IMG/VR virus record: IMGVR_UViG_3300037096_000048
Location: 1-57,117 of that record
Origin: a virus
Lineage: Duplodnaviria > Caudoviricetes
Length of the DNA: 57,117 nt
Reading direction: 5' to 3' (one strand)
In this document: piece by piece, positions 1,117 through 56,433 of the stretch
How the letters are laid out: every line of letters begins with the position of its first letter
How positions within the stretch are numbered: the first letter of the stretch is position 1
The notes under the pieces: model-generated
Told to the model about the DNA's origin: nothing
Seen by the model: the letters and a program-made list of their open reading frames with translations, nothing else
The model's database searches: none
Position numbers and translations under genes: made by a program

Positions 1117-3027
1117 GTGAAAGTCACGAACGTAGACCGCCCAAAACACACCAGCTACACCGCTAAGACTACAGAGAATAGTCAACGCAACGGTGCATAT
1201 CAATGGTGGCTGGGTAAGAATGCGACAGAGCGCGGCGCACAGCTCGTTGCTACAGCGGTGTATCTTCAAAAGAATCAGATATTTAGAGAAAGACAGGCAG
1301 CAATATATGCACGTTTGTACGGCAATATGTCCATGTTCAGCTTCATTGGCACCAATATGTCGAAGTTCGACAGTGCCAACAATCTGCCAATGGATCGCCC
1401 CACATTCAACGTCGTACAATCAGCTACAGATACACTTGTATCCAGAATTTCTCAAAGCCGTCCAGCACCTGTCTTCCTCACCGACAATTCAGACTACAAA
1501 GAGCGTAGACTTGCAAAACAACTCAATAATTTTATATTAGGAGAATTCTACCAGACCAAAACCTATGAGAAAGCATCGGTAGTACTTCGAGACGCCCTTG
1601 TAGAAGGTACTGGCTGCCTCAAGGTTTATGAGAATCAAGACAAAGTAGTCGTAGAGCGTAGGCTGCTCACAGAACTGATTGTGGACCACAATGAAGCCGT
1701 CTATGGTGAACCTCGCACACTGTACGAAAAGAAACTCATTGATCGCCGCGTACTTATGGATATGTTCCCGGGCTACAAGAATATCATCAAGGATGCAGAG
1801 ACAGCCACAATCGATAATAGTTCAGACAGCACCCGGTCGGTCGCAGAAATGGTGCTTGTCATTGAAGGTTGGCGTCTCAAGTCGGGCAAGGATGCCAAGG
1901 ATGGCCGCCACACGATAGCCTGCAGCTCTGGCACTATCTTAGACGATGAGTGGGGCAAGGATCGCTTCCCCTACGCCTTCCTGCACTACAGCCCTCGCAT
2001 GCTAGGTTTCTGGGCTCAAGGGCTTGCTGAGCAGCTCATGGGCACTCAGATGGAGATTAACTCCTTGCTGTATACTATAAGCCGTGCAATCCGCCTAGTC
2101 GGTGTACCGCGTGTTTTTGTTGAGATGGGCAGTAAAGTCAATAAAGCTAGTTTTAACAATGAGATAGGAACATTAATTGAATACCAAGGCACGAAACCTG
2201 TCTACGAAGTTGCTCCGTGTGTACCTGAAGAACTCTACGCACAATTGCAAAGGCTCATCGGCTACGCATATCAGCAATGTGGTGTGTCTGCATTGCAGGC
2301 TAGTTCCGAAATACCAAGTGGTCTCGACTCCGGCGAGGCTATACGAACTTACGATGACATTTCTACTGACCGTTTTGCTGCCCTTAGCCGTCGTTACGAT
2401 AATTTATTCATTGATCTGGCTTACTTGGTTACTGATGTCGCCAAAGATGTAGCAGAGCGCACGGGTAGTTATGAAACTGTATACCCCAATAAGAATGGAG
2501 CCAAACAGATAGACTTACCTGACATGGACATGCTGGAAGACCCATTCGTGATCCAGTGCTTCAACATGAGTAGTTTGCCTAGAGACCCAGCCGGGCGCAT
2601 GCAGAAGATCACTGAAATGATCCAAGCGGGTATGGTGACCATCAAGGAAGGCCGCAGACTGCTGGATTATCCAGATCTTGATCAAGTCGAGACCCTAGCC
2701 AATGCCAGCGAAGAGCGCATATTCCAGTACTTAGACGCCATAGTGGAAGAAGGCGACTACAAGATGCCAGATGCTTTCATGGACTTGGACTTAGCCAATG
2801 AGCTGACGGTGCAATATTACAACCTGTATGCAAGTTCCAAGCTTGAAGAAGACCGCTGCCAAATGCTCCGGGACTTCTTTTCGCAGATCCAAGCTATCAA
2901 ACAGGCTTCAGTGCCGCCAATGCCACCAGCAGGCCAGCCAGCGGCCCCACAAGCGAATCCACAGCCTACACCCCAATCTCCGTTAATCCCTAACGGTGCC
3001 CAGCAGCCCGCACCCCCGGCTGCATAA
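1117..3027 (+). CDS. Portal protein
   Basis: 636 aa, downstream of terL and upstream of scaffold/MCP; portal-like segments (PTFNVVQSATDTLVSRI, RFPYAFLHYSPRMLGFWAQGLAEQL, DSGEAIR); Pro/Gln-rich tail. Confidence 0.85.
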   Translation: MKVTNVDRPKHTSYTAKTTENSQRNGAYQWWLGKNATERGAQLVATAVYLQKNQIFRERQAAIYARLYGNMSMFSFIGTNMSKFDSANNLPMDRPTFNVVQSATDTLVSRISQSRPAPVFLTDNSDYKERRLAKQLNNFILGEFYQTKTYEKASVVLRDALVEGTGCLKVYENQDKVVVERRLLTELIVDHNEAVYGEPRTLYEKKLIDRRVLMDMFPGYKNIIKDAETATIDNSSDSTRSVAEMVLVIEGWRLKSGKDAKDGRHTIACSSGTILDDEWGKDRFPYAFLHYSPRMLGFWAQGLAEQLMGTQMEINSLLYTISRAIRLVGVPRVFVEMGSKVNKASFNNEIGTLIEYQGTKPVYEVAPCVPEELYAQLQRLIGYAYQQCGVSALQASSEIPSGLDSGEAIRTYDDISTDRFAALSRRYDNLFIDLAYLVTDVAKDVAERTGSYETVYPNKNGAKQIDLPDMDMLEDPFVIQCFNMSSLPRDPAGRMQKITEMIQAGMVTIKEGRRLLDYPDLDQVETLANASEERIFQYLDAIVEEGDYKMPDAFMDLDLANELTVQYYNLYASSKLEEDRCQMLRDFFSQIQAIKQASVPPMPPAGQPAAPQANPQPTPQSPLIPNGAQQPAPPAA

Positions 3028-4731: not shown

Positions 4732-6030
4732 ATGGCAGCGGTATATGCAACTAGTGGTAATCAGATTGCTTCTCTTAAGGAGTTGTATACTGATGACAAA
4801 GATTACATGCAGGATCTAGTCTACAAGGAAAACCCTTTCCTTGCTCTAGTTCCGAAAAATGAGAGTCCAGACGGCTTCGCGGGTAAGTACATCCCGGTTC
4901 CTCTGGAATATGGAGTTCCGCAGGGTCGTTCCCACACGTTCACCAACGCGCAGGGCAACCAGACACCGACGCAGCTTGCAAGTTATTTCGTGTTCGTTAT
5001 TCAGGATTACCAGTTGGTCACTATCACCAACCTCCTGATGGAACAGACGAAAACTGACGCCGGTGCATTCGTCGATGCTGCGAAGCTTCAGATGGATGGC
5101 GGTTTCAGGAACATTACCAACAACATCGCGTTTGAACTCTTCAATAGCGGTACGGCAACGCGTGGCAGTTCTACAGCAACTTCCACCCAAGCCGGTGTAA
5201 CTGTTGGCGGCACGGTCCTTCCCTTGGGCAATCCCCAGGCGATCGTTCAGTTCGAAGTGGGCATGACCATCGTGGCATCTGCTACGGATGGCGGCGCACC
5301 TAGCGCTGACTTTGTCACTCTCACCAGCGTGAACAGGGCAACAGGCGTTGTCAGCGGTACAGCTTCGGCTGCAACGTTGTCGGCTAACTGGGCTATTGGC
5401 ACAGGCATCGCATATCTGACAGTCATGGGCGACCTTCCAGCCGCCGGTGCAACGAGCACTGGTAGCTTCTTGGCACTGTCTGGACTGGCCGCATGGATTC
5501 CAGTCACTTCCCCAGCACCTACGGATAATTTCTGGGGTGTGAATCGTTCGGCTGACCCAACGCGTCTTGCAGGTCTTCGGTACAATGCGCAGGCATTCAC
5601 CATTGAAGAAGGCATGACAAATGCATTGGCATTCGCTAACCGAGAAGGTGCCAAGCCTGACATGATCATCATGGACTTCGCGTCCTATGCATCGCTTGTC
5701 AACGCTCTGGGCGCTAAGGTCTTATATGCTGAAGTGAAGCACGATGAAGTTGAAGTTGCATTCGACGGCATCACGTTTCAGAGCGCGTATGGCAAGGTGA
5801 CCATCTTGGCTGACAGGTCATGTCCTGCTCAGACCGCGTATGTCCTGACCATGAATACGTGGAAGCTTAGGAGCTTGGGCAAGGTACCGCATATCTTAAC
5901 ATATGGTATGGAAGGTTTGGAGGGACTCAGGGTTGGTAACGCGGATGCACTGGAAATCAGGATCGGGTATTATGGCAATCTGATTTGTTCTGCTCCTGGT
6001 TGGAATATGGTGGTCCAGCTCAGCGCGTAA
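4732..6030 (+). CDS. Major capsid protein
   Basis: 432 aa after scaffold; LKELY...QDLVYKENPFLAL N-terminus and GYYGNLICSAPG C-terminus typical of HK97-fold MCPs; strong SD; followed by terminator. Confidence 0.88.
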   Translation: MAAVYATSGNQIASLKELYTDDKDYMQDLVYKENPFLALVPKNESPDGFAGKYIPVPLEYGVPQGRSHTFTNAQGNQTPTQLASYFVFVIQDYQLVTITNLLMEQTKTDAGAFVDAAKLQMDGGFRNITNNIAFELFNSGTATRGSSTATSTQAGVTVGGTVLPLGNPQAIVQFEVGMTIVASATDGGAPSADFVTLTSVNRATGVVSGTASAATLSANWAIGTGIAYLTVMGDLPAAGATSTGSFLALSGLAAWIPVTSPAPTDNFWGVNRSADPTRLAGLRYNAQAFTIEEGMTNALAFANREGAKPDMIIMDFASYASLVNALGAKVLYAEVKHDEVEVAFDGITFQSAYGKVTILADRSCPAQTAYVLTMNTWKLRSLGKVPHILTYGMEGLEGLRVGNADALEIRIGYYGNLICSAPGWNMVVQLSA

Positions 6031-6122: not shown

Positions 6123-6905
6123 ATGAATACGTGCTCGATAATAGGTTGTAAGAATGCTTATTACTCTAAAGGTTTTTGCAAGAAACACTACGACAAAAAT
6201 CGTAGGCATGGATCGGCTGAATACGAGAGAGTATTAGAGAAAGAGCAAAAATGCACGTCGGCGGGATGTACTAACAATAGGTTTTCGGAAGGTCTATGCG
6301 CTATGCATCGCATGCGGGAACGTCGAAAAGATCCCGCTCAACAGACTAAAGACGTTGCCTACACTAAGGCATGGAAAAAAACTCATCCTGAGCTAGCCGC
6401 CAAGCATCAAGCCTCATACTGTCGTAAAAACGCCAGGCGCCTGAACGTCGCTACTGCCAAATGGAAACGCGATAATTGGGATTATTATAAGGCATACTTG
6501 ATAGCATCCAAAAAGAGGACTAGCAACGCCACGCCGCCTTGGCTTGACAAGCAAAGTCTGATCACTATTTTAAAGGAGGGTCCTAAAGGTCACCACGTTG
6601 ATCACATCATTCCCGTAACCCACAAAGATGTGTGTGGCCTAAACGTGCCTTGGAATTTGCAGTACTTGACCAAAGCTGAGAACCTAGCTAAATCTAATAA
6701 ATTTGACATAAATAAGCCGCTGAAGTATCTTAAACTTATGGAACAGCATTATCAAGCCATAGACAAATCCTTCGCACAATTGGAAACCCAAGGAGACACT
6801 AATGAGCCTAATCCCCCGGTGCAAAACCCTATTCCAGGAATTGGACAGTCTATCCCTACAGGAGAAAGTGCAAGCGATAAATCAGATACGCCAAGCGCTC
6901 CATGA
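6123..6905 (+). CDS. HNH homing endonuclease with N-terminal Cys-rich zinc-finger repeats
   Basis: CSIIGC...FCKKHY and CTSAGC...LCAMH repeats; ATPPW, HVDHIIP, VCGLNVPWNLQYL...NLAKSN. Confidence 0.88.
   Translation: MNTCSIIGCKNAYYSKGFCKKHYDKNRRHGSAEYERVLEKEQKCTSAGCTNNRFSEGLCAMHRMRERRKDPAQQTKDVAYTKAWKKTHPELAAKHQASYCRKNARRLNVATAKWKRDNWDYYKAYLIASKKRTSNATPPWLDKQSLITILKEGPKGHHVDHIIPVTHKDVCGLNVPWNLQYLTKAENLAKSNKFDINKPLKYLKLMEQHYQAIDKSFAQLETQGDTNEPNPPVQNPIPGIGQSIPTGESASDKSDTPSAP
6703..6731 (+). promoter_or_regulatory. Sigma70-type promoter for the ParB/PAPS-reductase operon
   Basis: TTGACA-17 nt-TATCTT at the end of the HNH domain. Confidence 0.65.
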
Positions 6906-7914
6906 ACACTCTCCAATGCGCGACCATCCCATTGACTTAGTGCTCTGGGAGCCTGTCGCCACGGTGAAACGCAATGATTACAATCCTAACTCTGTGGCGC
7001 CTACAGAACTCAAGTTACTAGAAACCTCTATAGCTGAAGACGGCTATACCCAACCCATCGTCACCTGGATCTCCGGTGATCACCGAGAGATAGTTGACGG
7101 TTTCCATCGCAGTAAAATTGCTATGGAGTCTGAAAAGGTCGGTAAGACTCTACACGGTTACATCCCGGTCACCACGGTGAGAGACCGCCAGCTCGATAAG
7201 AGTAACCGCATGGCATCCACAATCCGCCACAACCGTGCGCGCGGCTCTCACAGTGTTGACGCTATGTCTGAGATAGTGCTAGAGCTGAAAGCTAGGAATT
7301 GGAAGACTGCACGCATCTGCAAAGAGCTTGGCATGGAAGAAGACGAAGTGTTGCGCCTATGCCAGATCAGCGGGCTATCCGGACTATTTGGCGACGCTGA
7401 ATTCAGCCTAGCTTGGGAGAGTGACACCGCATCCAATGACTCTGAGTTAGACTTTGCGGCTGACTATTCCGCACTGACCCAGAACACAGGTGACAAGGAC
7501 CGAATCTTCCACACTTTTGACAAATGGGAAGCCGTGGGTGCTGGCTTCTTCGCGCCGGGCTTGAAAGGCCGAAGCAAGGACGAATGCGAGGATGAGTATG
7601 GTGCATTCCTGGCAGACTCTAATGCTTTCGCAGAAGGTATCCAGAAGGTATTTGCGGAATGGCCGAATAGCTGTGAGCATAACCTGACTAACAGCTCCAT
7701 GAATCGCATTGCTTGGATCGGGCAAGCTGCGGCATGTGCGGCACGTGGCTTGCCATCTACGTTCCGGGGTGGTTTTTCCGCGCTGCCTAAAGAGAAGCAG
7801 GACGAAGCTAATCAAGTAGCCTTGCGTTATCTGAATAAATGGCTAAAATCTAAGTCTATACCAGAAGTCACTATGGACAAGGCTTTCAGCGGTCGAGATT
7901 CAGACTTATTCTAG
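6802..7914 (+). CDS. ibrB: IbrB/YbdM-like ParB/Sulfiredoxin-fold protein with ~140 aa extra C-terminal domain
   Basis: NDYNPNSVAP, DGYTQPIV, EIVDGFHR, STIRHNRARG, KELGMEEDEVLRL motifs; SD AAGGAG. Confidence 0.85.
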   Translation: MSLIPRCKTLFQELDSLSLQEKVQAINQIRQALHEHSPMRDHPIDLVLWEPVATVKRNDYNPNSVAPTELKLLETSIAEDGYTQPIVTWISGDHREIVDGFHRSKIAMESEKVGKTLHGYIPVTTVRDRQLDKSNRMASTIRHNRARGSHSVDAMSEIVLELKARNWKTARICKELGMEEDEVLRLCQISGLSGLFGDAEFSLAWESDTASNDSELDFAADYSALTQNTGDKDRIFHTFDKWEAVGAGFFAPGLKGRSKDECEDEYGAFLADSNAFAEGIQKVFAEWPNSCEHNLTNSSMNRIAWIGQAAACAARGLPSTFRGGFSALPKEKQDEANQVALRYLNKWLKSKSIPEVTMDKAFSGRDSDLF

Positions 7915-7922
7915 GAGAAACC

Positions 7923-9164
7923 ATGATCAGACGCCTCAATATAGACGTGCTGCAAGCCTCTAGGGACCGAATCAACGTCATCCTAGACACTATCCCTCAT
8001 CCCTACGTGTCGCTGTCTGGTGGGAAGGATAGCACGGTTTTACTGCATTTGGTTATGGACGAGGCTATCAAGCGCGGTCGAAAGATAGGCGTCTTTATCG
8101 TAGACTTGGAAGCGCAGTACAAAGACACTATTGTCAATTTAGAGCAACTAGTTGAAATGTATAAAGATCACATTGACTTGCATTGGGTATGTCCCGAGAT
8201 GACGCTCAGGAACGCTACATCGGTGTACGAACCTAAATGGACATGCTGGGAACCTAGCCAGGAAACAGTGTGGGTTAGGAACAAACCAAAGTTAGCCGCC
8301 GATATGAGCCAATATGACTTCTACGTACCGGGTATGGAGTTTGAAGAGTTTGTGCCTTTATTTGGCGAATGGTATGGTGGTAATGAACTCTCATGTGCCT
8401 TTGTGGGTATTCGGGCAGACGAATCTCTGAACCGATACAAGACAGTCGCGGTGTTCAAGAAGACTGAAACTATCAACGGCACGTCTTGGACCACGAAGAT
8501 GAGTGCCGCCTGTTATAACGCCTATCCTATTTATGATTGGAAGGCCTCGGACATCTGGAAGTATCATTATGTTCATCCTCATAAGCCACACAACCACATT
8601 TACGATAAGATGCAGATGGCTGGTGTGCCTATGAAGGACCAACGCCTTTGCCAGCCCTACGGTGACACCCAGCGGCGGGGTTTGTGGTTATACAGCGTAC
8701 TAGAAGCTGATACGTGGGCTAAGCTGATTAATCGGGTAATCGGCGCTAATTCGTATGCTCTTTACGCTCAGGAAAAAGGTAATGTGAATGGCGAGGGCAA
8801 GATAACGAAGCCTGCAGGCTTGACTTGGGAACAATACTCCAAAGTATTACTTAAAAGCCTGCCTCGTAAGTCAGCAGAACATTACGCTGAACGCATTAGG
8901 CGGTTCTTCGGAGGCTGGAGTAAACGCGGCTATGCAGTAGTACCCGACGAAGTGAATCAAGACGTAGAGAACCTGCATTTTGCCCCTTCTTGGCGGCGCG
9001 TGGCTAAGACTCTGCTCCGGAACGACTATTGGTGCAAAGGTCTAGGGTTTAGCCAGCCAAAATCGGATGCTTACGGCAAGTACTTAGAACTAAAAGGTAA
9101 AGTTCGCACAAAAGCCAAACCCAAGAAGTGGGGCGACGCTAAAGGAAAAGAGGATCACAAATGA
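7923..9164 (+). CDS. ibrA: IbrA/YbdN-like PAPS-reductase family protein (DUF3440)
   Basis: PP-loop SGGKDS, DLEAQY, GIRADESLNR, YPIYDW, QRLCQPYG, PSWRR...NDYWC. Confidence 0.88.
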   Translation: MIRRLNIDVLQASRDRINVILDTIPHPYVSLSGGKDSTVLLHLVMDEAIKRGRKIGVFIVDLEAQYKDTIVNLEQLVEMYKDHIDLHWVCPEMTLRNATSVYEPKWTCWEPSQETVWVRNKPKLAADMSQYDFYVPGMEFEEFVPLFGEWYGGNELSCAFVGIRADESLNRYKTVAVFKKTETINGTSWTTKMSAACYNAYPIYDWKASDIWKYHYVHPHKPHNHIYDKMQMAGVPMKDQRLCQPYGDTQRRGLWLYSVLEADTWAKLINRVIGANSYALYAQEKGNVNGEGKITKPAGLTWEQYSKVLLKSLPRKSAEHYAERIRRFFGGWSKRGYAVVPDEVNQDVENLHFAPSWRRVAKTLLRNDYWCKGLGFSQPKSDAYGKYLELKGKVRTKAKPKKWGDAKGKEDHK

Positions 9165-9889
9165 CCATCGCACAATCCCCCTACCGCCGTATCTACGCCA
9201 TACCTGACATCCACGGTACCTCGACACTATTGCGCAAAGCCATAAAACTGATACGTGCCCATGGATATGACAAACAGACTGATATGATCATTTTCCTTGG
9301 CGACTACATTGACCGTGGTCCCGATACCCCCGGTGTAATCGACATCGTGCGTAATATGGTGGATAAGGGCTTTGCTAAGGCTATTAGAGGCAATCATGAT
9401 GACTTTGCGGTCAATGTGTACGTTAAATACAGTTTGACCGCTGCGCTCGACTGGGAGGCCAATAACAGGTGGATCACCGACGAACAGTACCCCAACAAAC
9501 GAATGTCTGAGGACCACGTCAGATTCCTGGGCTCATTACCTTATGCGATAGAAATGCAAGGCTTTTTCTTCAGTCACGCACCGGTGTTGAGAGAGAAACA
9601 CCGTAAACCAGGGCCATACCACGTGGATGAGCTGACGTGGACGAAGTTCGGCCCTGAGTGCGAGAAGCCTGGCGGCATGATGGACAAGCATGAAGGTCCA
9701 AAGAGTGATTGTGGCGTCGGTGAGACCCATCTCATAGGCATTTGTGGTCATATCCACCAGAGTAGGGACTTTGTGCGCAGGTTTCCTATGTACCGCATGC
9801 TAGACGCGGGTTGCGGGTGCTCATGGGGCAAGCTTGCAGTACATGAGTGCATTGAAAACATTACGTTTTACGCTGAACACGATAAATAA
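9161..9889 (+). CDS. Ser/Thr phosphatase-like metallophosphoesterase
   Basis: DIHG, GDYIDRG, RGNHD, CGH motifs (lambda NinI-like). Confidence 0.88.
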   Translation: MTIAQSPYRRIYAIPDIHGTSTLLRKAIKLIRAHGYDKQTDMIIFLGDYIDRGPDTPGVIDIVRNMVDKGFAKAIRGNHDDFAVNVYVKYSLTAALDWEANNRWITDEQYPNKRMSEDHVRFLGSLPYAIEMQGFFFSHAPVLREKHRKPGPYHVDELTWTKFGPECEKPGGMMDKHEGPKSDCGVGETHLIGICGHIHQSRDFVRRFPMYRMLDAGCGCSWGKLAVHECIENITFYAEHDK

Positions 9890-10784: not shown

Positions 10785-11366
10785 ATGAAGATATTTACTA
10801 TTGCTGACATTCGTTCGTGGAGACCTTGCTATGACCCTATTAAGCACATTTCTGAAACTTGGGAAGGAACAGCTATTGACATCTTGAAAATGGAAAACAT
10901 TACTTTTGCTGACCGACTATGGGTTGTATTGCGTATTGAATTAGTTTCAGAACGTGTTATGAGACTATTTGCAGTATGGTCCTATAGACAAACCCTTGTT
11001 TTTATTAAAGACCCCGATCTTAGAAGTATCGAATGTGCAAACGTGGCAGAAAGATTTGCTAACGGTGAAGCCACACGAGAAGAATTGTCGGCGGCGCGGT
11101 CAGCGGCGCGGTCGTCGGCGGAGTCAGCGGCGTGGTCAGCGGCGCGGTCAGCGGCGTGGTCAGCGGCGGGGTTAGCGGCGCGGTCGTCGGCGGAGTCGGC
11201 GGCGCGGTCGGCGGAGTCGGCGGCGTGGTCAGCGGCGCGGTCGTCGGCGGAGTCGGCGGCGCGGTTGGCGCGGTCGGCGGCGTGGTCAGCGGCGTGGTCA
11301 GCGGCGTATTCGGCTCAATGTGAGAAACTAATTGAAATGATCGAAAAGGAAAATGGTTTGATATGA
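10785..11366 (+). CDS. Phage protein with SAAW/SAAR tetrapeptide repeats
   Basis: N-terminal RLFAVW...AERFANGEATREEL domain followed by Ala/Ser repeats. Confidence 0.8.
   Translation: MKIFTIADIRSWRPCYDPIKHISETWEGTAIDILKMENITFADRLWVVLRIELVSERVMRLFAVWSYRQTLVFIKDPDLRSIECANVAERFANGEATREELSAARSAARSSAESAAWSAARSAAWSAAGLAARSSAESAARSAESAAWSAARSSAESAARLARSAAWSAAWSAAYSAQCEKLIEMIEKENGLI
11088..11316 (+). repeat. Degenerate 12-bp tandem repeat (TCRGCGGCGYGG) inside CDS
   Basis: About 19 GC-rich units within an AT-rich region. Confidence 0.9.
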
Positions 11367-11865: not shown

Positions 11866-11973
11866 ATGATAAGAGGATTAAAACAAAAATATAGGTCGCA
11901 GTTGTGGTCGCGGTCGGCGGCAAATCCAAGCGACAGCGCTGACTTACTGTGTTATGACTGGGTGGTCTTATGA
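11866..11973 (+). CDS. Small hypothetical protein (35 aa)
   Basis: Fills the gap exactly with ATGA overlap into next ORF; contains a WSRSAA remnant of the upstream repeat. Confidence 0.4.
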   Translation: MIRGLKQKYRSQLWSRSAANPSDSADLLCYDWVVL

Positions 11974-12251
11974 AGAGCGAATTTAAGCCCCTCTTGCAGC
12001 GCTATTGGGAGAACGAGGACAAGATTAGAGCAATCGAGTTCGAGACCGGTCTCTCCGTTGATGCTATTGCGGACAATCCAGATCTGGCATCAGAAGTTGA
12101 CCTAAATCGATTAGAAGCGCTACTCGAAAACAAGGAGGGTCTGCTCGTCTCTCTCGCGAAATCCGAACAGCAGGACATTGCTCACGCGAATGTTTCGGAC
12201 CTTATGCGCTTTCGGCAACTGTCTTCTTGCGTCTCTGCCGAAGTTTCTTAA
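11970..12251 (+). CDS. Hypothetical protein
   Basis: 93 aa ORF at end of small-gene cluster. Confidence 0.65.
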   Translation: MKSEFKPLLQRYWENEDKIRAIEFETGLSVDAIADNPDLASEVDLNRLEALLENKEGLLVSLAKSEQQDIAHANVSDLMRFRQLSSCVSAEVS

Positions 12252-12370
12252 GAGCCTCACGTGTCCGAGGCAACTCTTTGACTGCCTCTGGCCGGGATTG
12301 CAGCGATAATCAATATAAGCCTTAATACCAAAAACTAACCTAAAACCCAGTATTTAACCCCAAGACTGGC

Positions 12371-12423
12371 ATAATGTACAGTATGTTACACAAAAAGTAA
12401 CATATTGGACATTATAGTGTCCA
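12371..12423. repeat. 19-bp imperfect inverted repeat plus overlapping short palindrome
   Basis: ATAATGTACAGTATGTTAC / GTAACATATTGGACATTAT; TGGACA-TTATAG-TGTCCA. Confidence 0.75.
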
Positions 12424-12436
12424 TTAGCTGCCATTA

Positions 12437-12458
12437 TAGACCAAATGCGCTAGGGCGA
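12437..12458 (+). promoter_or_regulatory. Putative late promoter motif
   Basis: TAGACCAAATGCGCTAGGGCGA upstream of the resumed virion module. Confidence 0.65.
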
Positions 12459-12563
12459 AGGCTTGAGATATCCTCAGAGCTTCAGCCCGTTGAGCCTAGT
12501 CCCCGTGCTTGCCGGTGAATGCGTCAATTTAGACGATATAGAGGGGCACGTGAGGATACCTAT

Positions 12564-13889
12564 ATAGCTAACCGCAACTGGGCCAATGCAGGCCGCAATT
12601 TCAGCATGCACGTCAAGCCAGTCACTCTAGACTGCAATTTCGTCGTAGACTCAACCAATGGTAATGGACTCGGCATCAGAAACCTTAAAGGTGCTGAAAT
12701 TGCTAATGTTTTCATGAACACTACGGCTGGAAGTCTTCCACCCGCCTCTCCCAATCTCGGCACCGCCAGAACCTATGGCCTTTTGGGTGCTACGGCAGTT
12801 ACTGGTTCGACCGGCGCCGGTAGTACAGTAACGGGCAACATCGGTGTAACTCCAGGTACATCCATCACTAACTTCCCGCCTTCCACATTCACGGGCAGGG
12901 AAGACATTGCAAACACAGCCGCAGCACAGGCTAAAGCCTTCGCGCAGGCAGCTTACATTGCATTGCAGGCTCAGACGCCTACAGGTATCAATAGTGAGCT
13001 TGGCGGTCAATCCTTAGCGGCTGGCACTTATAAAGCAACATCTGGTACGGCTGGCACATTCACTCTGAATGGCACGCTTACGCTGACAGGCTCTGCAACA
13101 GATATATATGTCTTCCAGACGACTACAACTCTGAATACTGGGGGAAGTAGCACTCCAATTATCTCCCTAGGTTCTGTCAAGGCTAGTAATATCTATTGGG
13201 TTATTGGTTCTAGTGCAACACTGAATTCTAGTAATGCCGGGACTTTCCAGGGCAATATTATTGCTCTGACCTCGATCACTGACACTCTTGGCACGGTCGC
13301 GAATGGCTCTTTAATCGCTCTGAATGGCGCCGTCACTTTGAGCGCGACTACAGCAGTCAATGTGCAGCTTCCAGCGGCCACACCACTTGGCGGCAATCCC
13401 AACCCAAATCCTGGGTACATTGCAGTCCAGTTCGCATCGTCTTACAATCGCTATCTGTATGGCGCTGCAGGCTTTGTATCTCCTCTGTCGGGCACGGTAT
13501 TGACTAGCACAGTAGTAGGTCAGCTGTACGTCATTGTCAGCTTGGGAACGGCTACAGCTGCTCAGTGGCTTGCAGCGGGTCTTCCAGCTGGCATCACACC
13601 TGTAATCGGTGCGGCCTTCATTGCTTTAGCCACAGGCTCTATAGGCGGTTCAGCAGCTGTTGAAACTGCCGGTACTAGTGGTGTGGATCACTTGGAAGTT
13701 GTGGGCGATCCAAACACTGAGTTGTTATCTGTCGTTCCAACAGGAACCGTACCCGGCGGAATCGTATCGGGCGGATGGATCTTCCTTCAAGCATTGTCTG
13801 GCGGCGTGTTGACAGCACCAGCAGATGGCACGGTTATTGGCTTGACATTCATCATGTCCGATAGTTCTGTCCTGATCAACGGCGAGTAA
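12564..13889 (+). CDS. Virion structural protein with inserted DUF3494 ice-binding domain
   Basis: 12747-13367 has ice-binding-family hallmarks (NLGTARTYGLLG, VTGNIGVTPG, AAAQAK..A..AY helix, ELGGQSLAAGTY, YVFQ, ASNIYWVIGSSATL, FQGNIIA, NGSLIALNGAVTL); best SD (GAGGA) precedes ATA 12564, alternative ATG 12519. Confidence 0.85.
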   Translation: MANRNWANAGRNFSMHVKPVTLDCNFVVDSTNGNGLGIRNLKGAEIANVFMNTTAGSLPPASPNLGTARTYGLLGATAVTGSTGAGSTVTGNIGVTPGTSITNFPPSTFTGREDIANTAAAQAKAFAQAAYIALQAQTPTGINSELGGQSLAAGTYKATSGTAGTFTLNGTLTLTGSATDIYVFQTTTTLNTGGSSTPIISLGSVKASNIYWVIGSSATLNSSNAGTFQGNIIALTSITDTLGTVANGSLIALNGAVTLSATTAVNVQLPAATPLGGNPNPNPGYIAVQFASSYNRYLYGAAGFVSPLSGTVLTSTVVGQLYVIVSLGTATAAQWLAAGLPAGITPVIGAAFIALATGSIGGSAAVETAGTSGVDHLEVVGDPNTELLSVVPTGTVPGGIVSGGWIFLQALSGGVLTAPADGTVIGLTFIMSDSSVLINGE

Positions 13890-13896
13890 GAGAATT

Positions 13897-13971
13897 TGCG
13901 CGGTAGTGGAGTGGTACCATACGAGGCTCATAACCTCAGTGACAAGGGTTCGAATCCCTTCCGCGCTACCA
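13897..13971 (+). tRNA. tRNA with CAU anticodon (Met/fMet-like)
   Basis: Acceptor TGCGCGG/CCGCGCT (1:72 mismatch), D-arm GTGG/CCAT, loop CTCATAA, T-arm AAGGG-TTCGAAT-CCCTT, ACCA end. Confidence 0.92.
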
Positions 13972-14062
13972 GAGTGACCACGAGATCCCAGGCTGAGCGT
14001 AGTTGAAACAGTTGATCAGCTTGGGATAGTAACCTTAACTAAGGGAATTCTTAATAAAGCTT

Positions 14063-15169
14063 ATGGCAGTTCCTTTAACTCCCTTAAATTTCGTTGTCCA
14101 AACAGCAAATGCTCAGAATTTCTTGAGCTGGTCTCCACAGTTGATAGGGGCAGTAGATCCAGTTGTATCCTATTCTATTTTTAGAAGTCTCGACGGTGTG
14201 ACCTATTCCAATCTCGCTGCAGTGGTGGTAATGCCGCTACCGCAGCCGCATTTACCATCTTTTTTCCTCGACACTTCGGTAATACCTGGTATCCAATATT
14301 GGTACGAACTATTTGCATTAGATAGCGCACCTAACGCAAGTTTACCCGCTTTTGCTGCGCCGGTAATCACGGCTAACCCCGGTGAGATATCATTAGGTCA
14401 AATTAGACTCATGTCCCAACAGCGAGCGGATAGAGTCAATTCTAACTTCGTTACCTTATCAGAATGGAATGATTTCATTAGGTTATCTTGTTATGAGCTG
14501 TATGACATCCTGATAACCACCTACGATGACCAATACATATCTACACCGGCTCAGTTTGTCACTAGCGCCAGCGCACAGCTCTATCCGTTGCCTAATGGAC
14601 TCTTAACATTTACTAATGGTCTTAACCCAAACTTAAATTTCGTAGCGCCCGCTCTGTACAAGCTACGCGGCGTGGACCTTGGGCTTAATCCCGGTCAAGG
14701 TGCTACGAACAATAACGGTTGGGTGAGTATCAATAAGTTCAACTTCGCGGATCGTAACAAGTATTTCTACCCTAACACCGCTAGTACTATCTATGGCGTG
14801 TTCAACATGAGTTATCGTATGCTGGGCAGCAATATTGAGTTCATTCCAGCACCGAGCGCTAATCAGCCGGTGAGACTCTGGTACGTACCAGAATTGACAG
14901 CTTTACTCCAAGATACGGACATGACAAGTTACTCTATCTCAGGATGGATATGGTACGTCATTCTTCGCGCTGCTAAGTATGCGTTAGATAAGGAAGAATC
15001 TGATACATCAGGCATTGCGGCTGAGATATTGTTTCTCAAGACGCGCATTGAAGCCGCAGCCCAGAACAAAGATGCTGCTCAACCCGATACAATCAGCGAC
15101 ACACGCAGAAGCCTATCAGGCGGTCACTGGGGCTATGGGGACTCTAGCGGTTTCGGCGGGGGCTGGTAA
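14063..15169 (+). CDS. Head-tail adaptor / tail tubular protein A-like, with N-terminal Fn3-like domain
   Basis: Position; LGQIR...QQRAD...EWNDFI, RLWYVP motifs; N-terminal LSW...YSIFRS...YWYEL. Confidence 0.7.
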   Translation: MAVPLTPLNFVVQTANAQNFLSWSPQLIGAVDPVVSYSIFRSLDGVTYSNLAAVVVMPLPQPHLPSFFLDTSVIPGIQYWYELFALDSAPNASLPAFAAPVITANPGEISLGQIRLMSQQRADRVNSNFVTLSEWNDFIRLSCYELYDILITTYDDQYISTPAQFVTSASAQLYPLPNGLLTFTNGLNPNLNFVAPALYKLRGVDLGLNPGQGATNNNGWVSINKFNFADRNKYFYPNTASTIYGVFNMSYRMLGSNIEFIPAPSANQPVRLWYVPELTALLQDTDMTSYSISGWIWYVILRAAKYALDKEESDTSGIAAEILFLKTRIEAAAQNKDAAQPDTISDTRRSLSGGHWGYGDSSGFGGGW

Positions 15170-15173
15170 GCCT

Positions 15174-15491
15174 GTGGCGTTCACACGACAGCAGACAAGC
15201 GACTTGGACCTTCAGTTAGTGCAATCGAACGTACAAGCCGCTTTGACGCCTTTACAGAATATACCTATGGTAGGCGGTAATGTTCACGGTAGCATTGCTC
15301 TTCCGGTAACCTTGAATTCAGCAGCAAACCCCACAGCCGTGTCCCATGGATTGGGTAGAATTCCGCAGTATTGGACATTGCTGGGGATAATGCAAAATAG
15401 TACTGTGTGGCAGTCACAACCTTCAGATGCCAACTTCATCTATCTAAGCTGCAGTGCCGCTGTATGCCAGATCATATTGTGGGTGAACTAA
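15174..15491 (+). CDS. Small virion protein
   Basis: GTG start just after upstream stop; VSHGLGRIP motif. Confidence 0.65.
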   Translation: MAFTRQQTSDLDLQLVQSNVQAALTPLQNIPMVGGNVHGSIALPVTLNSAANPTAVSHGLGRIPQYWTLLGIMQNSTVWQSQPSDANFIYLSCSAAVCQIILWVN

Positions 15492-54718: not shown

Positions 54719-55022
54719 CGTCCACCATAAAATAGACTGTGAAGTAGACGGAAAGCCCAGACAACTCACAGTAGAAGAATACGGACGCGGCGGCACTAAA
54801 TCGCCTGAGATGTGGGTTATTGTCTGCGATGGAAAACGCTACGTCCCTAGAGCACAAAGACTAGCGCGAATAACAGTTACACTAAACGGCTTATTTAAGA
54901 TTGTCTATGCTCCAGCAGGACTCTTTAAAGACTTGGTCTACAAAACGAATCCTTTCATGGAGATGATTCCCAAAAACGAAACTTGGGGGGGAAAGTACAT
55001 CAGGCTGCCGGATGCTGACTAA
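54708..55022 (+). CDS. Hypothetical protein
   Basis: Overlaps neighbours. Confidence 0.6.
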   Translation: MLISVHHKIDCEVDGKPRQLTVEEYGRGGTKSPEMWVIVCDGKRYVPRAQRLARITVTLNGLFKIVYAPAGLFKDLVYKTNPFMEMIPKNETWGGKYIRLPDAD

Positions 55023-56433
55023 AGCTGGAGCGGCACGGGCCTATAACAAACGTAAGAACTATAAAGCAAAGCCCATAGTCCTGGACCCTAATTTTCCAGA
55101 CCAAAATTCCTTAATCTTAGACCCGGCCCGGTATCTAGCGGTGCAGTGCTCTAGGCGCGCGGGAAAGACTACCGGTCTGGCTATCAAGTTCTTCAACACC
55201 CTAGAGAAGTACCCCGGTTCACAGTGCATCTATCTCTCTCTCACTTATGATTCAGCCCGCGATATCATGTGGCCCGTATTACAGGAACTTAACGATAAAT
55301 ACAAGATTGGATGCACATTTATAGAGTCTAAGTTGTGGATGTTACATCCTAATGGCTCAAAGTTGAAGCTTGTCGGCGCAGACATGAAGAACTTCATCAA
55401 GCGTCTCAAAGGCCGCAAATTCCCCGGTGTAGGTGTGGATGAGAGCCAGGACTTTGGATCACACCTGCAGAGTCTCGTGGATGATATTCTGACTCCATCC
55501 ATTGCTGACTATGAAGATGGCTGGATAGCCCTCACCGGCACCCCAGGCCCAGTGCCGCAGGGCTATTTCTTTGATATTACCAACAATAAGAAGTTTGGCT
55601 ATTCCAACCACAGCTGGACACTCTTCGAAAACCCGCACATGCCCAATCCCAGGGCGTTCGTAGCGGACTTGAAAAAACGCCGCGAGTGGGAAGACAACTA
55701 TCCTACTTTACTCAGGGAATGGCGCAATCAGTGGGTATTAGACGTACAAAGTTTATGGATCAGATACAACGAGAGCATCAATCACTACACAGAGCTGCCT
55801 ACCTTGCCCGCAGGCAAGCTTTGGAACTACATCTTAGGCATTGACATAGGGTACAGGGATGCTGACGCCTTGGCCGTCCTAGCGTGGTCTGAGCACGATC
55901 CTAACACCTACCTGGTGAAAGAAGTCATCACGACCAAGCAGGATATAACTTCCCTTGCTGAGCAAATAGCAGCCCTAGCTATAGAGTACCCTATCTCTAA
56001 GATGATCATGGATGAAGGCGCACTGGGAAAGAAGGCCGCCGAAGAATTACGCCGCCGGAAGCACTTACCAATCCAGCCCGCAGACAAGACTCGCAAACAA
56101 GAAAACGTTGAAATCCTTAATGATTGTCTACGTCGCGGCAGGCTCAAAGCCAAAAGTGCTTCGCGTTTCGCACAAGACTCGTACTTAGTTCAGATAGATT
56201 GGGACAAGTCTACTCCCGAGCGCATAATTATTAAGAAAAATCCACATTCTGATATAATCGACAGCGTACTGTACGCTTTCAAAGAAAGTCCAGCCTTCAC
56301 CTATGTCGCCACAGTAGACAAGCCCAAATATGGTACGAAGGAATGGGCAGAAGCCCAGCAAAGTCAAATGTTTGAAGCGGCACAGACTCACTTTCAGGAA
56401 CTAGCCGACCGCGATAAGGGTTGGCACCCATAA
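55012..56433 (+). CDS. terL: Terminase large subunit
   Basis: SRRAGKT Walker A, VDE Walker B, TGTP, ENPH, GIDIGYRD nuclease, HSDIIDSVLY. Confidence 0.95.
   Translation: MLTKAGAARAYNKRKNYKAKPIVLDPNFPDQNSLILDPARYLAVQCSRRAGKTTGLAIKFFNTLEKYPGSQCIYLSLTYDSARDIMWPVLQELNDKYKIGCTFIESKLWMLHPNGSKLKLVGADMKNFIKRLKGRKFPGVGVDESQDFGSHLQSLVDDILTPSIADYEDGWIALTGTPGPVPQGYFFDITNNKKFGYSNHSWTLFENPHMPNPRAFVADLKKRREWEDNYPTLLREWRNQWVLDVQSLWIRYNESINHYTELPTLPAGKLWNYILGIDIGYRDADALAVLAWSEHDPNTYLVKEVITTKQDITSLAEQIAALAIEYPISKMIMDEGALGKKAAEELRRRKHLPIQPADKTRKQENVEILNDCLRRGRLKAKSASRFAQDSYLVQIDWDKSTPERIIIKKNPHSDIIDSVLYAFKESPAFTYVATVDKPKYGTKEWAEAQQSQMFEAAQTHFQELADRDKGWHP

What the first reader, a model, noticed from the sequence alone, without database searches (positions are those of the whole stretch)
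12564..13889. Ice-binding (DUF3494) domain inserted into a predicted phage virion protein
Seen: ~207 residues (12747-13367) carry the DUF3494 ice-binding pattern (NLGTA.TYGLLG, TGNIGV.PG, long AAAQAK..AY helix, LGGQSL.AGTY, YVFQ, ASNIYWVIGSSATL, FQGNIIA, NG.LIA..GAVTL) with many Thr/Ser-rich rungs. The domain is spliced between ...ANVFMNTTA and TPLGGNPNPNPGY... of a beta-rich protein. There is no signal peptide, and the gene opens the late adaptor/tail block behind a late-promoter motif. Known: DUF3494 beta-solenoids bind ice, inhibit recrystallisation or act as ice adhesins, usually as secreted or surface proteins of cold-habitat microbes. Inference: the domain is displayed on the capsid or neck, giving an ice-binding virion (freeze protection, or concentration at ice/brine interfaces where hosts gather).
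Basis: partly seen in the sequence, partly recalled or inferred. Interest (0 to 1): 0.92.

Follow-up and report, generated by a model that had tools for sequence, protein, structure and literature searches.

The report
Ice-binding-fold cassette in phage head-module protein
A phage from peat and permafrost soils carries a complete copy of the microbial "ice-binding protein" fold spliced into a loop of a small protein encoded between its capsid and head-to-tail adaptor genes, so the particle probably displays a flat, threonine-rich sticky face, but whether that face binds ice has not been tested.

Summary
ORF 12519-13889 (456 aa) holds a genuine DUF3494/PF11999 domain at residues 79-284. It scores 112.7 bits against a cut-off of 28.7. 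The AlphaFold model has pLDDT 91.6 and matches the ice-binding protein AnpIBP at TM 0.90. The domain sits in a loop of a ~220-aa beta-sandwich scaffold.

The scaffold family is known only from uncultivated phages. Most members lack the insert, 13 of 80 related viral loci carry it, and a family tree needs at least 9-13 gains or losses. Closely related cassettes also occur at a second site in the same scaffold and in at least three other protein contexts.

The gene is conserved between the SU10-type major capsid gene and an SU10-type adaptor gene. This is the position of SU10 gp10, a putative minor capsid protein. Virion display is therefore likely, but it rests on gene order only.

The face equivalent to the proven ice-binding site of AnpIBP is the most conserved part of the domain. 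It is 21/23 Ala/Gly/Ser/Thr with no charged residue. Near-identical DNA occurs in peat and permafrost metagenomes and in a peat RNA library.

Ice binding, virion location and host are untested.

This scan had already found the same phenomenon on other DNA, including the same head-module family. I found no paper that describes it.

The parts
12438..12450 (+). Copy of the phage-specific motif AGACCAANNNCGC upstream of the gene (candidate late promoter element)
   Evidence: 5 copies, all on the + strand, against 0.14 expected; 0 of 100 shuffles reached 5. Copies lie at 3895, 12438, 18876, 25767 and 56499. The motif is not conserved upstream of the gene in the 80 related loci. Promoter function is inferred.
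12519..13889 (+). Open reading frame of the scaffold-plus-DUF3494 protein (456 aa from ATG 12519; 441 aa if it starts at ATA 12564)
   Evidence: There are 699 homologues at E<=1e-3 among 8000 scored candidates.
12564..12752 (+). N-terminal scaffold segment (residues 16-78): conserved arm (M)ANRNW..., two to three beta strands, and a Pro-rich linker into the insert
   Evidence: Alignment A1 has invariant F41, D44, N47, N49, G52, R54, L56 and K57. The AlphaFold model has strands 34-43, 53-57 and 61-66.
12753..13370 (+). DUF3494 / PF11999 ice-binding-type beta-solenoid with its long alpha helix (residues 79-284), inserted in a scaffold loop
   Evidence: Pfam 112.7 bits. PDB sequence match to 7bwx, E 6.7e-24. 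Foldseek to 7bwx_A: E 5.9e-15, TM(target) 0.90, rmsd 2.0, 38% identity. B-face mapping.
13371..13886 (+). C-terminal scaffold domain (residues 285-456), the bulk of the beta-sandwich
   Evidence: 316 cluster representatives at E<=1e-3, most of them 200-240 aa proteins in which this domain begins near residue 50. Base-form model has pLDDT 91.7.
13897..13971 (+). tRNA with CAU anticodon, 7 nt after the stop codon
   Evidence: ARAGORN. Contigs of the RNA library reach across it to 14044.
14063..15169 (+). Downstream neighbour: Fn3 domain plus SU10-type head-to-tail adaptor homologue
   Evidence: A homologue lies directly after the gene in 77 of 80 loci. 20 of 49 family members hit PF24175 SU10_adaptor (best E 1.5e-9), but the window's own copy gave no Pfam hit. 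The profile hits Fn3 domains in PDB at positions 9-77, E 1.8e-12.
4732..6030 (+). Major capsid protein (SU10_MCP type), the usual upstream neighbour of this gene family
   Evidence: PF17236, 25.5 bits against a cut-off of 24.1. phrog_9953 major head protein. Synteny.

Best explanation
The gene encodes an accessory virion-surface protein of an uncultivated short-tailed-type phage lineage. It occupies the slot between the major capsid protein and the head-to-tail adaptor that SU10 gp10, a putative minor capsid protein, occupies. Its ~220-aa beta-sandwich anchors to the particle. A surface loop after the third strand serves as an insertion slot. In this phage the slot holds a complete DUF3494 beta-solenoid joined by two Pro-rich linkers. 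The first and last coils of this fold lie next to each other, so the fold can be spliced into a loop without disturbing the host domain. The solenoid then projects from the particle and exposes its flat Thr/Ser-rich B-face. I take ice to be the most likely ligand. Many copies per virion would act as a multivalent ice adhesin or local recrystallisation inhibitor during the freeze-thaw cycles of peat and permafrost soil. Shown here: domain identity, fold, insertion topology, optional and mobile nature of the cassette, conserved gene position, conservation of the B-face, occurrence in peat and permafrost DNA, and presence in an RNA library. Inferred: presence on the virion, the site on the particle, copy number, and ice as the ligand.
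For: Domain and fold: PF11999 at 112.7 bits against a cut-off of 28.7. AlphaFold model has pLDDT 91.6 and pTM 0.80. The best 28 or more Foldseek PDB matches are all solved ice-binding or antifreeze proteins; the top one is AnpIBP 7bwx_A with TM 0.90, rmsd 2.0 and 38% identity.

Ice-binding face: the AnpIBP paper lists the B-face segments and shows that S153Y and T156Y cut activity to 17% (passages read). Through the alignment these map to P0001 TSIT 114-117 (identical), SSATLN 231-236, TTLNTG, TSITDT, GAVTLS and TGSTGA. The 23 outward positions are 11 T, 5 S, 3 G, 2 A and 2 N, with none charged. Across 78 cassette-bearing relatives S231 is kept in 74/78, S232 in 76/78 and T234 in 78/78. These positions have a mean top-residue frequency of 0.83 against 0.64 for the rest of the domain, and are 86% A/G/S/T against 48%. 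0 of 5000 random position sets reach either value.

Insertion in a loop: homologues without an insert align across the junction. In the high-confidence base-form model (pLDDT 91.7) the site is a coil between strands 44-48 and 66-71.

Structural module: the order TerL-portal-scaffold-MCP-[this gene]-adaptor homologue holds across relatives. The adaptor homologue follows within 1.3 kb in 77 of 80 loci. The capsid gene precedes within 1 kb in 41 of 65 loci that hold both. MCP is PF17236 and the adaptor family is PF24175. In SU10 the gene between MCP gp9 and adaptor gp11 is gp10, a predicted Ig-like minor capsid protein.

The gene shares a five-copy + strand motif with the other structural blocks.

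Habitat and expression: 5 runs from 5 studies hold at least half of the gene's sampled words (4 peat, 1 permafrost; one may be the source). 17 rows in 14 studies hold part of it. Five contigs of a peat metatranscriptome library, each with no more than 1 differing letter, lie on 12469-14044.
Against: No direct evidence places the protein in a virion. SU10 gp10, the positional analogue, was not seen in the SU10 capsid reconstruction. It also shows no detectable similarity to this scaffold (hhalign probability 0.2). The scaffold fold has only generic beta-sandwich matches, with best VIA Z 6.3 and no Foldseek PDB match at E<=1e-3. DUF3494 is described in print as both ice-binding and substrate- or surface-binding, and as occurring across many environments. 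The conserved GSSAT-type motifs are family-wide and partly structural, so B-face conservation does not prove ice binding. The same slot carries unrelated ~50-70 aa domains in 47 of 201 family members analysed, which suggests a general adhesion-module slot. Related cassettes sit in proteins of non-structural neighbourhoods in two other viral contigs. Earlier unchecked notes of this scan report such cassettes in ordinary soil and rhizosphere phages. An RNA library can contain DNA.
Confidence: 0.4

Rival explanations
1. The display architecture is the same, but the ligand is not ice. The flat Thr/Ser face binds polysaccharide: host capsule, exopolysaccharide slime, peat organic matter or a cell-surface glycan. 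It holds virions in the host's matrix or gives a first reversible attachment, as Ig-like decoration domains are proposed to do.
For: The literature describes DUF3494 as found in both ice-binding and substrate-binding or surface-adhesion proteins across many environments (passages). The insertion slot also holds other small domains in 47 of 201 family members and is empty in 67, as expected of interchangeable adhesion modules. One related cassette protein also carries chitobiase/Fn3-associated carbohydrate-type domains (P0100). Earlier unchecked scan notes report such cassettes in rhizosphere and general soil phages.
Against: Every solved structure matched is an experimentally characterised ice-binding protein. 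The residues whose mutation cripples AnpIBP are conserved. Near-identical DNA was found only in peat and permafrost runs, although that search finds only near-identical sequence. No calls here identified a glycan-binding DUF3494 with a defined ligand.
Confidence: 0.3
2. The protein is not part of the particle. It is a late-expressed soluble DUF3494 protein released at lysis, or acting in the infected cell, that protects host or progeny from freezing. This is the 'auxiliary gene' reading used for viral PF11999 genes in Arctic viromes.
For: PF11999 genes on viral contigs have been interpreted as host cryoprotection genes (passages of PMC11515562). Related cassette proteins lie beside endonuclease, phosphoesterase and ribonucleotide reductase genes in two other viral contigs. 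SU10 gp10 was not seen on the capsid.
Against: The scaffold is a core, conserved gene of the head-tail module even without any cassette: 67 of 80 loci have no DUF3494, and position is conserved. A soluble cryoprotectant would not need this. There is no signal peptide. The conserved N-terminal arm is typical of an assembly contact (inference).
Confidence: 0.12
3. The scaffold is a small receptor-binding or fibre-tip protein attached to the adaptor, and the inserted domain is the host-recognition module.
For: The weak best structural matches include C-terminal domains of tailspikes and fibre tips: phiAB6 tailspike Z 6.3, AP22 gp53 Z 4.3, R-pyocin fibres Z 4.3. The central domain is variable. In SU10 the adaptor docks fibres.
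Against: Those Z values lie within the tool's stated noise range. The protein has no shaft or N-terminal anchor domain. Its scaffold is about as conserved as the capsid and adaptor proteins: 39-56% identity across loci, against 24-40% for the large tail protein. It sits on the capsid side of the adaptor gene.
Confidence: 0.1

Closest known systems
Single-domain DUF3494 (IBP-1) ice-binding proteins: AnpIBP (PDB 7BWX/7BWY) and EfcIBP (6EIO)
   Same: Same Pfam family and fold: triangular beta-solenoid with a long helix (TM 0.90, 38% identity to 7bwx). The equivalents of the AnpIBP B-face ice-binding residues are kept, including S153/T156.
   Different: Those proteins are free and secreted. Here the domain has no signal peptide and is nested inside a loop of a phage head-module protein. 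Activity is untested.
SfIBP_1 of Shewanella frigidimarina (PDB 6BG8): DUF3494 fused to Ig-like domains
   Same: A DUF3494 domain tethered to a larger surface through beta-sandwich domains. It matches P0001 residues 159-281 at E 1.1e-8 and by Foldseek at E 4.1e-11.
   Different: It is a terminal fusion on a bacterial cell-surface protein, not a loop insertion in a virus protein. Its adhesin role is recalled, not read here.
SU10 gp10 (Ig-like putative minor capsid protein), compared by its authors with the phage Epsilon15 minor capsid protein and the phi29 head-fibre N-domain
   Same: Same genomic slot between an SU10-type MCP and an SU10-type adaptor. It is a small beta-sandwich.
   Different: No detectable sequence similarity (hhalign probability 0.2). 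132 aa against ~220 aa. gp10 carries no inserted domain and was not seen in the capsid map.
PF11999 'ice-binding-like' genes on viral contigs of Arctic surface waters (PMC11515562)
   Same: DUF3494 encoded by viruses of a cold habitat.
   Different: They were reported as three auxiliary genes for host cryoprotection. The passages I read say nothing of a structural-protein context. That paper's supplementary tables were not available to me.
Jelly-roll cement proteins of short-tailed phages (KHP30/KHP40, Pam1, GP4 capsids)
   Same: Small beta-sandwich proteins bound on HK97-type capsids, with weak structural resemblance (Z 3.4-3.6).
   Different: The scores are within noise. Membership is not shown.
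DUF3494 cassettes in other phage virion proteins found earlier in this scan
   Same: The same kind of optional, swappable cassette in a sheath, fibre, adaptor or head-module protein. One note describes a duplicated small gene next to the capsid gene of a peat/permafrost phage.
   Different: Those are unchecked AI notes on other genomes. Here the phage has a single copy, and it is the cassette-bearing one.

Membership tests
Pfam PF11999 / DUF3494 (IBP-1) domain | Profile match above the curated gathering score | tested here: met
   112.7 bits against 28.7, residues 89-278, profile positions 2-206 of 208. 114.6 bits in the whole-record scan.
Pfam PF11999 / DUF3494 (IBP-1) domain | Beta-solenoid of triangular cross-section with a long alpha helix packed alongside | tested here: met
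   The model has helix 133-150 flanked by short strands. Foldseek TM(target) is 0.76-0.90 to 28 or more solved IBPs.
Functional ice-binding proteins of the DUF3494 type | Flat B-face rich in small and hydroxyl residues at the positions that form the ice-binding site in characterised members | tested here: met
   21 of 23 mapped outward positions are A/G/S/T, 0 are charged, and S231/T234 equal AnpIBP S153/T156. The mapping is by sequence alignment, not by coordinates.
Functional ice-binding proteins of the DUF3494 type | Measured thermal hysteresis, recrystallisation inhibition or ice-plane binding | not testable with these tools
   Needs a bench assay.
Functional ice-binding proteins of the DUF3494 type | Export to the outside (signal peptide or surface anchor), typical of microbial members | tested here: not met
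   The N-terminus MRQFRRYRGAREDTYIANRNW... has no hydrophobic segment. Exposure would have to come from release of virions.
Phage minor capsid / decoration / cement proteins | Gene in the head module next to the major capsid gene | tested here: met
   The gene lies within 1 kb after MCP in 41 of 65 loci, and after a 2.5-9 kb inserted island in 20 loci and in the window.
Phage minor capsid / decoration / cement proteins | Sequence or fold homology to a known decoration protein | tested here: inconclusive
   0 families matched for the window protein at E<=1, and among 10 base forms at E<=1 only six weak rows (E 0.04-0.33), all but one of unknown function. hhalign against SU10 gp10 gives probability 0.2. 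VIA Z 3.4-3.6 to KHP30/40, Pam1 and GP4 cement proteins is within noise.
Phage minor capsid / decoration / cement proteins | Physical presence on the capsid lattice | not testable with these tools
   Needs virion proteomics or cryo-EM. No cultured relative was found: tblastn of this protein, MCP and the adaptor against 50,697 phage records gave no match.
SU10-like (Kuravirus-type) head-tail module | SU10-type MCP and adaptor families | tested here: met
   PF17236 at 25.5 bits against 24.1 for the window MCP. PF24175 in 20 of 49 adaptor-family members, but not in the window's own copy. This is not membership of the genus, since there is no tblastn match to any phage record.
Receptor-binding tail fibres / tailspikes | N-terminal anchor plus trimeric shaft, a place among tail genes, and high sequence turnover | tested here: inconclusive
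   No shaft or anchor domain in the models. The gene lies on the capsid side of the adaptor. Weak matches to fibre-tip domains have Z of 6.3 or less.

The most novel reading that the evidence does not exclude
Virions of a widespread peat and permafrost phage lineage are themselves ice-binding particles. Tens to hundreds of DUF3494 solenoids displayed on the head act as a multivalent ice adhesin and recrystallisation inhibitor. This keeps particles intact through freeze-thaw and parks them on ice grain surfaces and brine veins where hosts are concentrated. The cassette is a mobile 'cold-survival' display module traded among unrelated phage structural proteins.
Probability: 0.3. Interest if true: 0.85.

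Novelty: new variant of a known kind. Interest (0 to 1): 0.6.

Why it matters
Ice-binding proteins are known as secreted or cell-surface proteins of cold-adapted microbes. A virus particle that carries them would be a new way for viruses to persist and find hosts in frozen soils, which hold large carbon stocks and where virus-host activity below freezing has been reported (PMC8522061, seen only in a search listing).

The case is directly testable. The domain is small, folds confidently, and has named residues to mutate. The family also offers natural controls: relatives with no insert, with other inserts, and tandem base-plus-cassette pairs. It further marks a permissive display loop in a conserved phage protein.

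The result is tempered in three ways. Function and virion location are unproven. The fold also has non-ice roles in the literature. This scan has already met the same cassette in many other phage genomes, so this window adds a clear, expressed, single-copy example rather than a first sighting.

Tried and rejected
Looking for a named family for the scaffold:
- PHROGs gave 0 families for the window protein at E<=1; among 10 base-form relatives at E<=1, six weak rows appeared (E 0.04-0.33), all but one of unknown function.
- A profile of 80 base forms against PDB sequences gave nothing below E 2.9.
- The ESM Atlas gave only virus-only hypothetical clusters with scores of 0.87 or less.
- Foldseek against BFVD gave one match at E 2.5e-4 with TM 0.28 and rmsd 13. 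I rejected it as uninformative.

Looking for cultured relatives: tblastn of the protein, the MCP and the adaptor homologue against the phage collection found no match.

Neighbours: phmmer of the 368-aa and 1035-aa neighbours against PDB gave nothing useful.

Complex prediction of the capsid protein (alignment A5) with this protein (alignment A3) returned 'no answer' (score 0.00, mark 0.32). This is no evidence either way.

Host:
- A scan of genome contigs with the cassette alone gave only 7 loci of 28-37% identity, in Terriglobia, Holophagaceae, Bdellovibrionales and other MAGs.
- The scaffold profile was not found in 2 of those genomes.
- It was not found in the 401 genomes searched from the phylum of the Terriglobia MAG.
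- No host can be named from this.

The motif AGACCAANNNCG[CT] is not conserved upstream of the gene in the 80 loci. The shorter repeat CATTATAG is not significant: 4 found, 1.9 expected. A 20-nt probe of the upstream region is unique. The sigma-70 and terminator scans gave nothing above shuffles.

RNA library X6: no contig lay on 11900-12454 or on 14120-15200, while DNA runs X2 and X4 cover those parts.

Small-share runs X8-X17 are not used as habitat evidence.

Habitat correlation of cassette-bearing against base forms could not be done, because no sample metadata are served. I did not try to trace samples.

Literature:
- 'DUF3494'+'phage' returned 1 unrelated paper.
- 'DUF3494' alone returned 43 papers, 40 listed, none on a virion protein by title or abstract start.
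- 'ice-binding'+'phage'+'capsid'+'virion' returned 6 papers, none describing such a protein.
- 'Acidobacteriota/phage/tundra/ice-binding' returned 34 papers at 3 of 4 terms; the 12 listed have 0 occurrences of 'ice-binding'.
The supplementary tables of PMC11515562, which would name its three viral PF11999 genes and their contexts, might bear on the novelty claim.
Full report
WHAT IS THERE. The window is a complete IMG/VR virus record of 57,117 bases, with CheckV completeness 100. It has phage hallmarks. These are a large terminase (55012-56433), portal (1117-3027), SU10-type major capsid protein (4732-6030), DNA polymerase, primase-helicase, ribonucleotide reductase and SbcCD. On the + strand an open frame runs 12519-13889 (456 aa, P0001). 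Pfam PF11999 'Ice_binding' matches residues 89-278 at 112.7 bits against a gathering score of 28.7. It is the only such match in the record. phmmer against PDB sequences aligns residues 79-284 to the ice-binding proteins 7bwx/7bwy (E 6.7e-24), 6eio (1e-21) and 6bg8 (1.1e-8).

STRUCTURE. An AlphaFold2 model built on 93 aligned relatives has mean pLDDT 91.6 and pTM 0.80. Only the first ~20 residues are poorly defined. Foldseek against the PDB returns solved ice-binding or antifreeze proteins in every row down to E 1.2e-8. The best is AnpIBP 7bwx_A, with E 5.9e-15, TM by target 0.90, rmsd 2.0 A and 38% identity. Nothing comparable appears for the rest of the chain.

THE FLANKS ARE A SEPARATE, CONSERVED PHAGE PROTEIN AND THE DOMAIN IS OPTIONAL. 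A word-indexed search found 699 relatives at E<=1e-3 among 8000 scored candidates. An exhaustive HMMER search with the C-terminal 172 residues alone found 316 cluster representatives. Most are 200-240 aa proteins in which that domain starts near residue 50. In alignment A1 the N-terminal ~50 residues (MANRNW..HVKPVLLDCNFVVDSTNGNGLGIRSLKG) and the C-terminal ~170 residues are conserved. Between them lies nothing, a ~50-70 aa unrelated segment, or DUF3494.

Among the 265 proteins fetched, 114 have the plain N-C architecture and 78 have N-DUF3494-C. Seven have a further insertion in the C-domain. One (P0071) carries DUF3494 at a different site near the C-terminus. Of 80 related loci in IMG/VR, 13 (L002-L014) carry the cassette, one has a 67-aa insert, and the rest are base forms.

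On a FastTree of 201 scaffold sequences, with insert columns dropped, the cassette-bearing state needs 13 changes. Well-supported branches force at least 9 of them. The shuffled mean is 62. This means repeated gain or loss within a mostly coherent half of the tree. The caveats are that this is a quick tree, that the two searches sampled the forms unevenly, and that paralogues exist.

THE CASSETTE IS MOBILE. DUF3494 stretches 56-74% identical to the window's occur in other contexts. These include a ~355-aa family in which the domain is nested in a different ~150-aa scaffold (P0077 and relatives). They also include a 459-554-aa family with a C-terminal chitobiase/Fn3-associated domain (P0100, P0111), and P0120. 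P0057 (two copies), P0075 (four cassette stretches by phmmer; three by Pfam) and P0117 carry it as well. In a tree of 109 cassette sequences these nest inside the diversity of the head-module family's cassettes. The window's cassette lies in a supported 31-row group holding 13 site-1 cassettes of the head-module family, the site-2 cassette of P0071 and 17 cassettes from other scaffolds. Two of the other contexts were seen on viral contigs. One lies beside an endonuclease VII gene (L089). The other lies between a phosphoesterase and an HNH endonuclease near a ribonucleotide reductase (L090). Both are non-structural neighbourhoods.

WHERE THE GENE SITS. tblastn of the window's proteins on the 80 loci gives a fixed order. 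It runs terminase, portal, a scaffold-like protein, MCP, this gene, a 330-420-aa protein, then a ~1000-aa protein and further large proteins. The 330-420-aa protein follows within 1.3 kb in 77 of 80 loci. The MCP gene ends within 1 kb upstream in 41 of the 65 loci that hold both. In 20 loci, as in the window, a 2.5-9 kb island lies between them. In the window that island holds ParB-like, PAPS-reductase-like and phosphatase genes.

The downstream protein family has an N-terminal Fn3 domain (profile against PDB, E 1.8e-12). Twenty of its 49 aligned members hit Pfam PF24175 'SU10_adaptor' (best E 1.5e-9), although the window's own copy does not. The MCP hits PF17236 'SU10_MCP' at 25.5 bits against 24.1. 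In phage SU10 the order is portal gp6, scaffold gp8, MCP gp9, gp10, adaptor gp11. The structure paper describes gp10 as a predicted Ig-like protein. It likens gp10 to the Epsilon15 minor capsid protein and the phi29 head-fibre N-domain, and reports that gp10 was not seen in the capsid map (passages read).

The window's gene is thus the positional analogue of SU10 gp10. It is not a demonstrable homologue (hhalign probability 0.2). No record in the 50,697-phage collection matches this protein, the MCP or the adaptor homologue, so the lineage is uncultivated.

THE SCAFFOLD FOLD. A base-form relative (P0127, 223 aa) folds with pLDDT 91.7 as a beta-sandwich with one short helix. The insertion site is a coil between strands 44-48 and 66-71. 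Its fold matches are generic. There is no Foldseek PDB match at E<=1e-3. The best VIA-align Z values are 6.3 (phiAB6 tailspike C-domain) and 6.2 (WSSV VP37). Jelly-roll cement proteins of KHP30/40, Pam1 and GP4 score Z 3.4-3.6 among many unrelated sandwiches. All of this lies within the tool's stated noise. I therefore call it an accessory head-module protein of unknown attachment site.

DOES THE CASSETTE LOOK ABLE TO BIND ICE? The AnpIBP paper locates the ice-binding site on the B-face and lists its segments. It shows that S153Y and T156Y reduce activity to 17%. I mapped the segments through the alignment; the chain numbering is offset by 6, which I checked at two segments. They correspond to P0001 as follows:
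- TSIT 114-117, identical to AnpIBP T36-T39.
- TGSTGA 95-100.
- TTLNTG 203-208.
- SSATLN 231-236, where S231 and T234 equal S153 and T156.
- TSITDT 251-256.
- GAVTLS 270-275.

The 23 outward-pointing positions are 11 Thr, 5 Ser, 3 Gly, 2 Ala and 2 Asn, with none charged or bulky. AnpIBP is stated to have 70% small residues there. In 78 cassette-bearing relatives these positions are more conserved than the rest of the domain (0.83 against 0.64). They are also far richer in A/G/S/T (86% against 48%). 0 of 5000 random sets of 23 positions reach either value.

This result is compatible with ice binding but does not prove it. The GSSAT-type motifs are conserved family-wide. The family is also described as substrate-binding and as found in many environments.

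HABITAT AND EXPRESSION. Near-identical DNA of the gene is held by 17 listed runs from 14 studies. Five runs from five studies hold at least half of its sampled words (four labelled peat metagenome, one permafrost metagenome; one may be the source sample). When laid, one run carries the whole 3.3-kb stretch in one contig with a single difference. A peat metatranscriptome library has five contigs, each with no more than 1 differing letter, lying on 12469-14044. An RNA library can contain DNA, so I treat this as a hint of transcription only. The index finds only near-identical sequence, so it says where this phage occurs, not where the family occurs.

MECHANISM PROPOSED. The published description of the fold states that the final coil ends next to the initial coil (abstract start of PMC11645318 in the listing). 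This makes the fold suitable for loop insertion. Here it is joined by Pro-rich linkers (..TTAGSLPPASP.. and ..LPAATPLGGNPNPNP..). The window has a single gene copy, the cassette-bearing one, so every copy of the protein in this phage would carry the solenoid. Six related loci (L004-L007, L010, L011) instead hold a base-form copy directly upstream of the cassette-bearing copy. In the two pairs compared, L005 and L010, the copies are about 55% identical in the scaffold. This suggests that mixed assemblies are possible.

I judge display on the particle at about 0.65. Given display, I rate ice slightly above other ligands.

WHAT IS KNOWN. DUF3494 ice-binding proteins are well described, and viral PF11999 genes have been reported as putative host-cryoprotection genes. 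I found no paper describing the fold spliced into a phage structural-module protein (searches; supplements not seen). Earlier notes of this scan report the same kind of cassette in sheath, fibre, adaptor and head-module proteins of many uncultured soil phages; a word search returned 80 findings in at least 62 genomes. They include a duplicated head-module gene in a peat/permafrost phage. The sequence look-up shared only 4 of 110 words with other genomes. These are unchecked notes. They lower the claim to a first sighting and, because some concern ordinary soils, they weigh slightly against an ice-only reading.

VERDICT. This is a new variant of known kinds (a DUF3494 domain, and a phage accessory head protein with a display loop), unpublished as far as I could search. 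It has an attractive, cheap and decisive set of experiments. Interest is 0.6.

Noticed in passing
window 12564-12566; loci L055, L005-L007, L048, L076-L078, L065: At the codon aligned with the Met of the conserved MANRN N-terminus, 52 of 62 family genes with a recognisable motif have ATG. Seven have ATC, two have ATA (the window and L055) and one has AAA. This suggests near-cognate AUH initiation or upstream starts. The window has GAGGA 7 nt before the ATA, and an in-frame ATG 15 codons upstream.
   Followed up: partly
window 13897-13971: A tRNA with a CAU anticodon lies 7 nt after the gene's stop. Its identity (initiator, elongator Met, or Ile2 after modification, which would read ATA) is open.
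   Followed up: no
window 3895, 12438, 18876, 25767, 56499 (+ strand): Five copies of AGACCAANNNCGC lie ahead of structural gene blocks, all on the + strand (0.14 expected). The motif is not conserved at the equivalent place in 80 related loci.
   Followed up: partly
L004, L005, L006, L007, L010, L011: These loci hold tandem paralogues: a base-form copy directly upstream of the cassette-bearing copy. In the two pairs compared (L005, L010) the copies are about 55% identical in the scaffold.
   Followed up: partly
protein P0071; proteins P0016, P0018, P0026, P0037, P0041, P0070, P0228; loci L012-L014: DUF3494 is inserted at a second site, before the last strand, in one family member. A further ~140-aa insertion sits inside the C-domain of seven proteins and three loci. 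The scaffold therefore has at least three permissive loops.
   Followed up: partly
L089 8001-9044; L090 7329-8993: Closely related DUF3494 cassettes sit in other proteins of ~50-60 kb viral contigs, in non-structural neighbourhoods (endonuclease VII; phosphoesterase, HNH, ribonucleotide reductase).
   Followed up: partly
L024 8526-, L030 10149-, L057 6260-: In three loci the adaptor homologue (414-424 aa) contains a 66-78-aa segment that matches part of the C-domain of the head-module protein. This looks like a small shared sub-domain. The window's own pair shows no such similarity.
   Followed up: no
window 6802-9889: ParB-like, PAPS-reductase/DUF3440 and metallophosphatase genes form an island between the capsid gene and this gene. 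20 of 65 related loci have a comparable gap of more than 2.5 kb there.
   Followed up: no
window 10785-11366: A 193-aa ORF has a long run of SAARSAAWSAA-type repeats. The opposite strand and other frames are open across the same low-complexity stretch.
   Followed up: no
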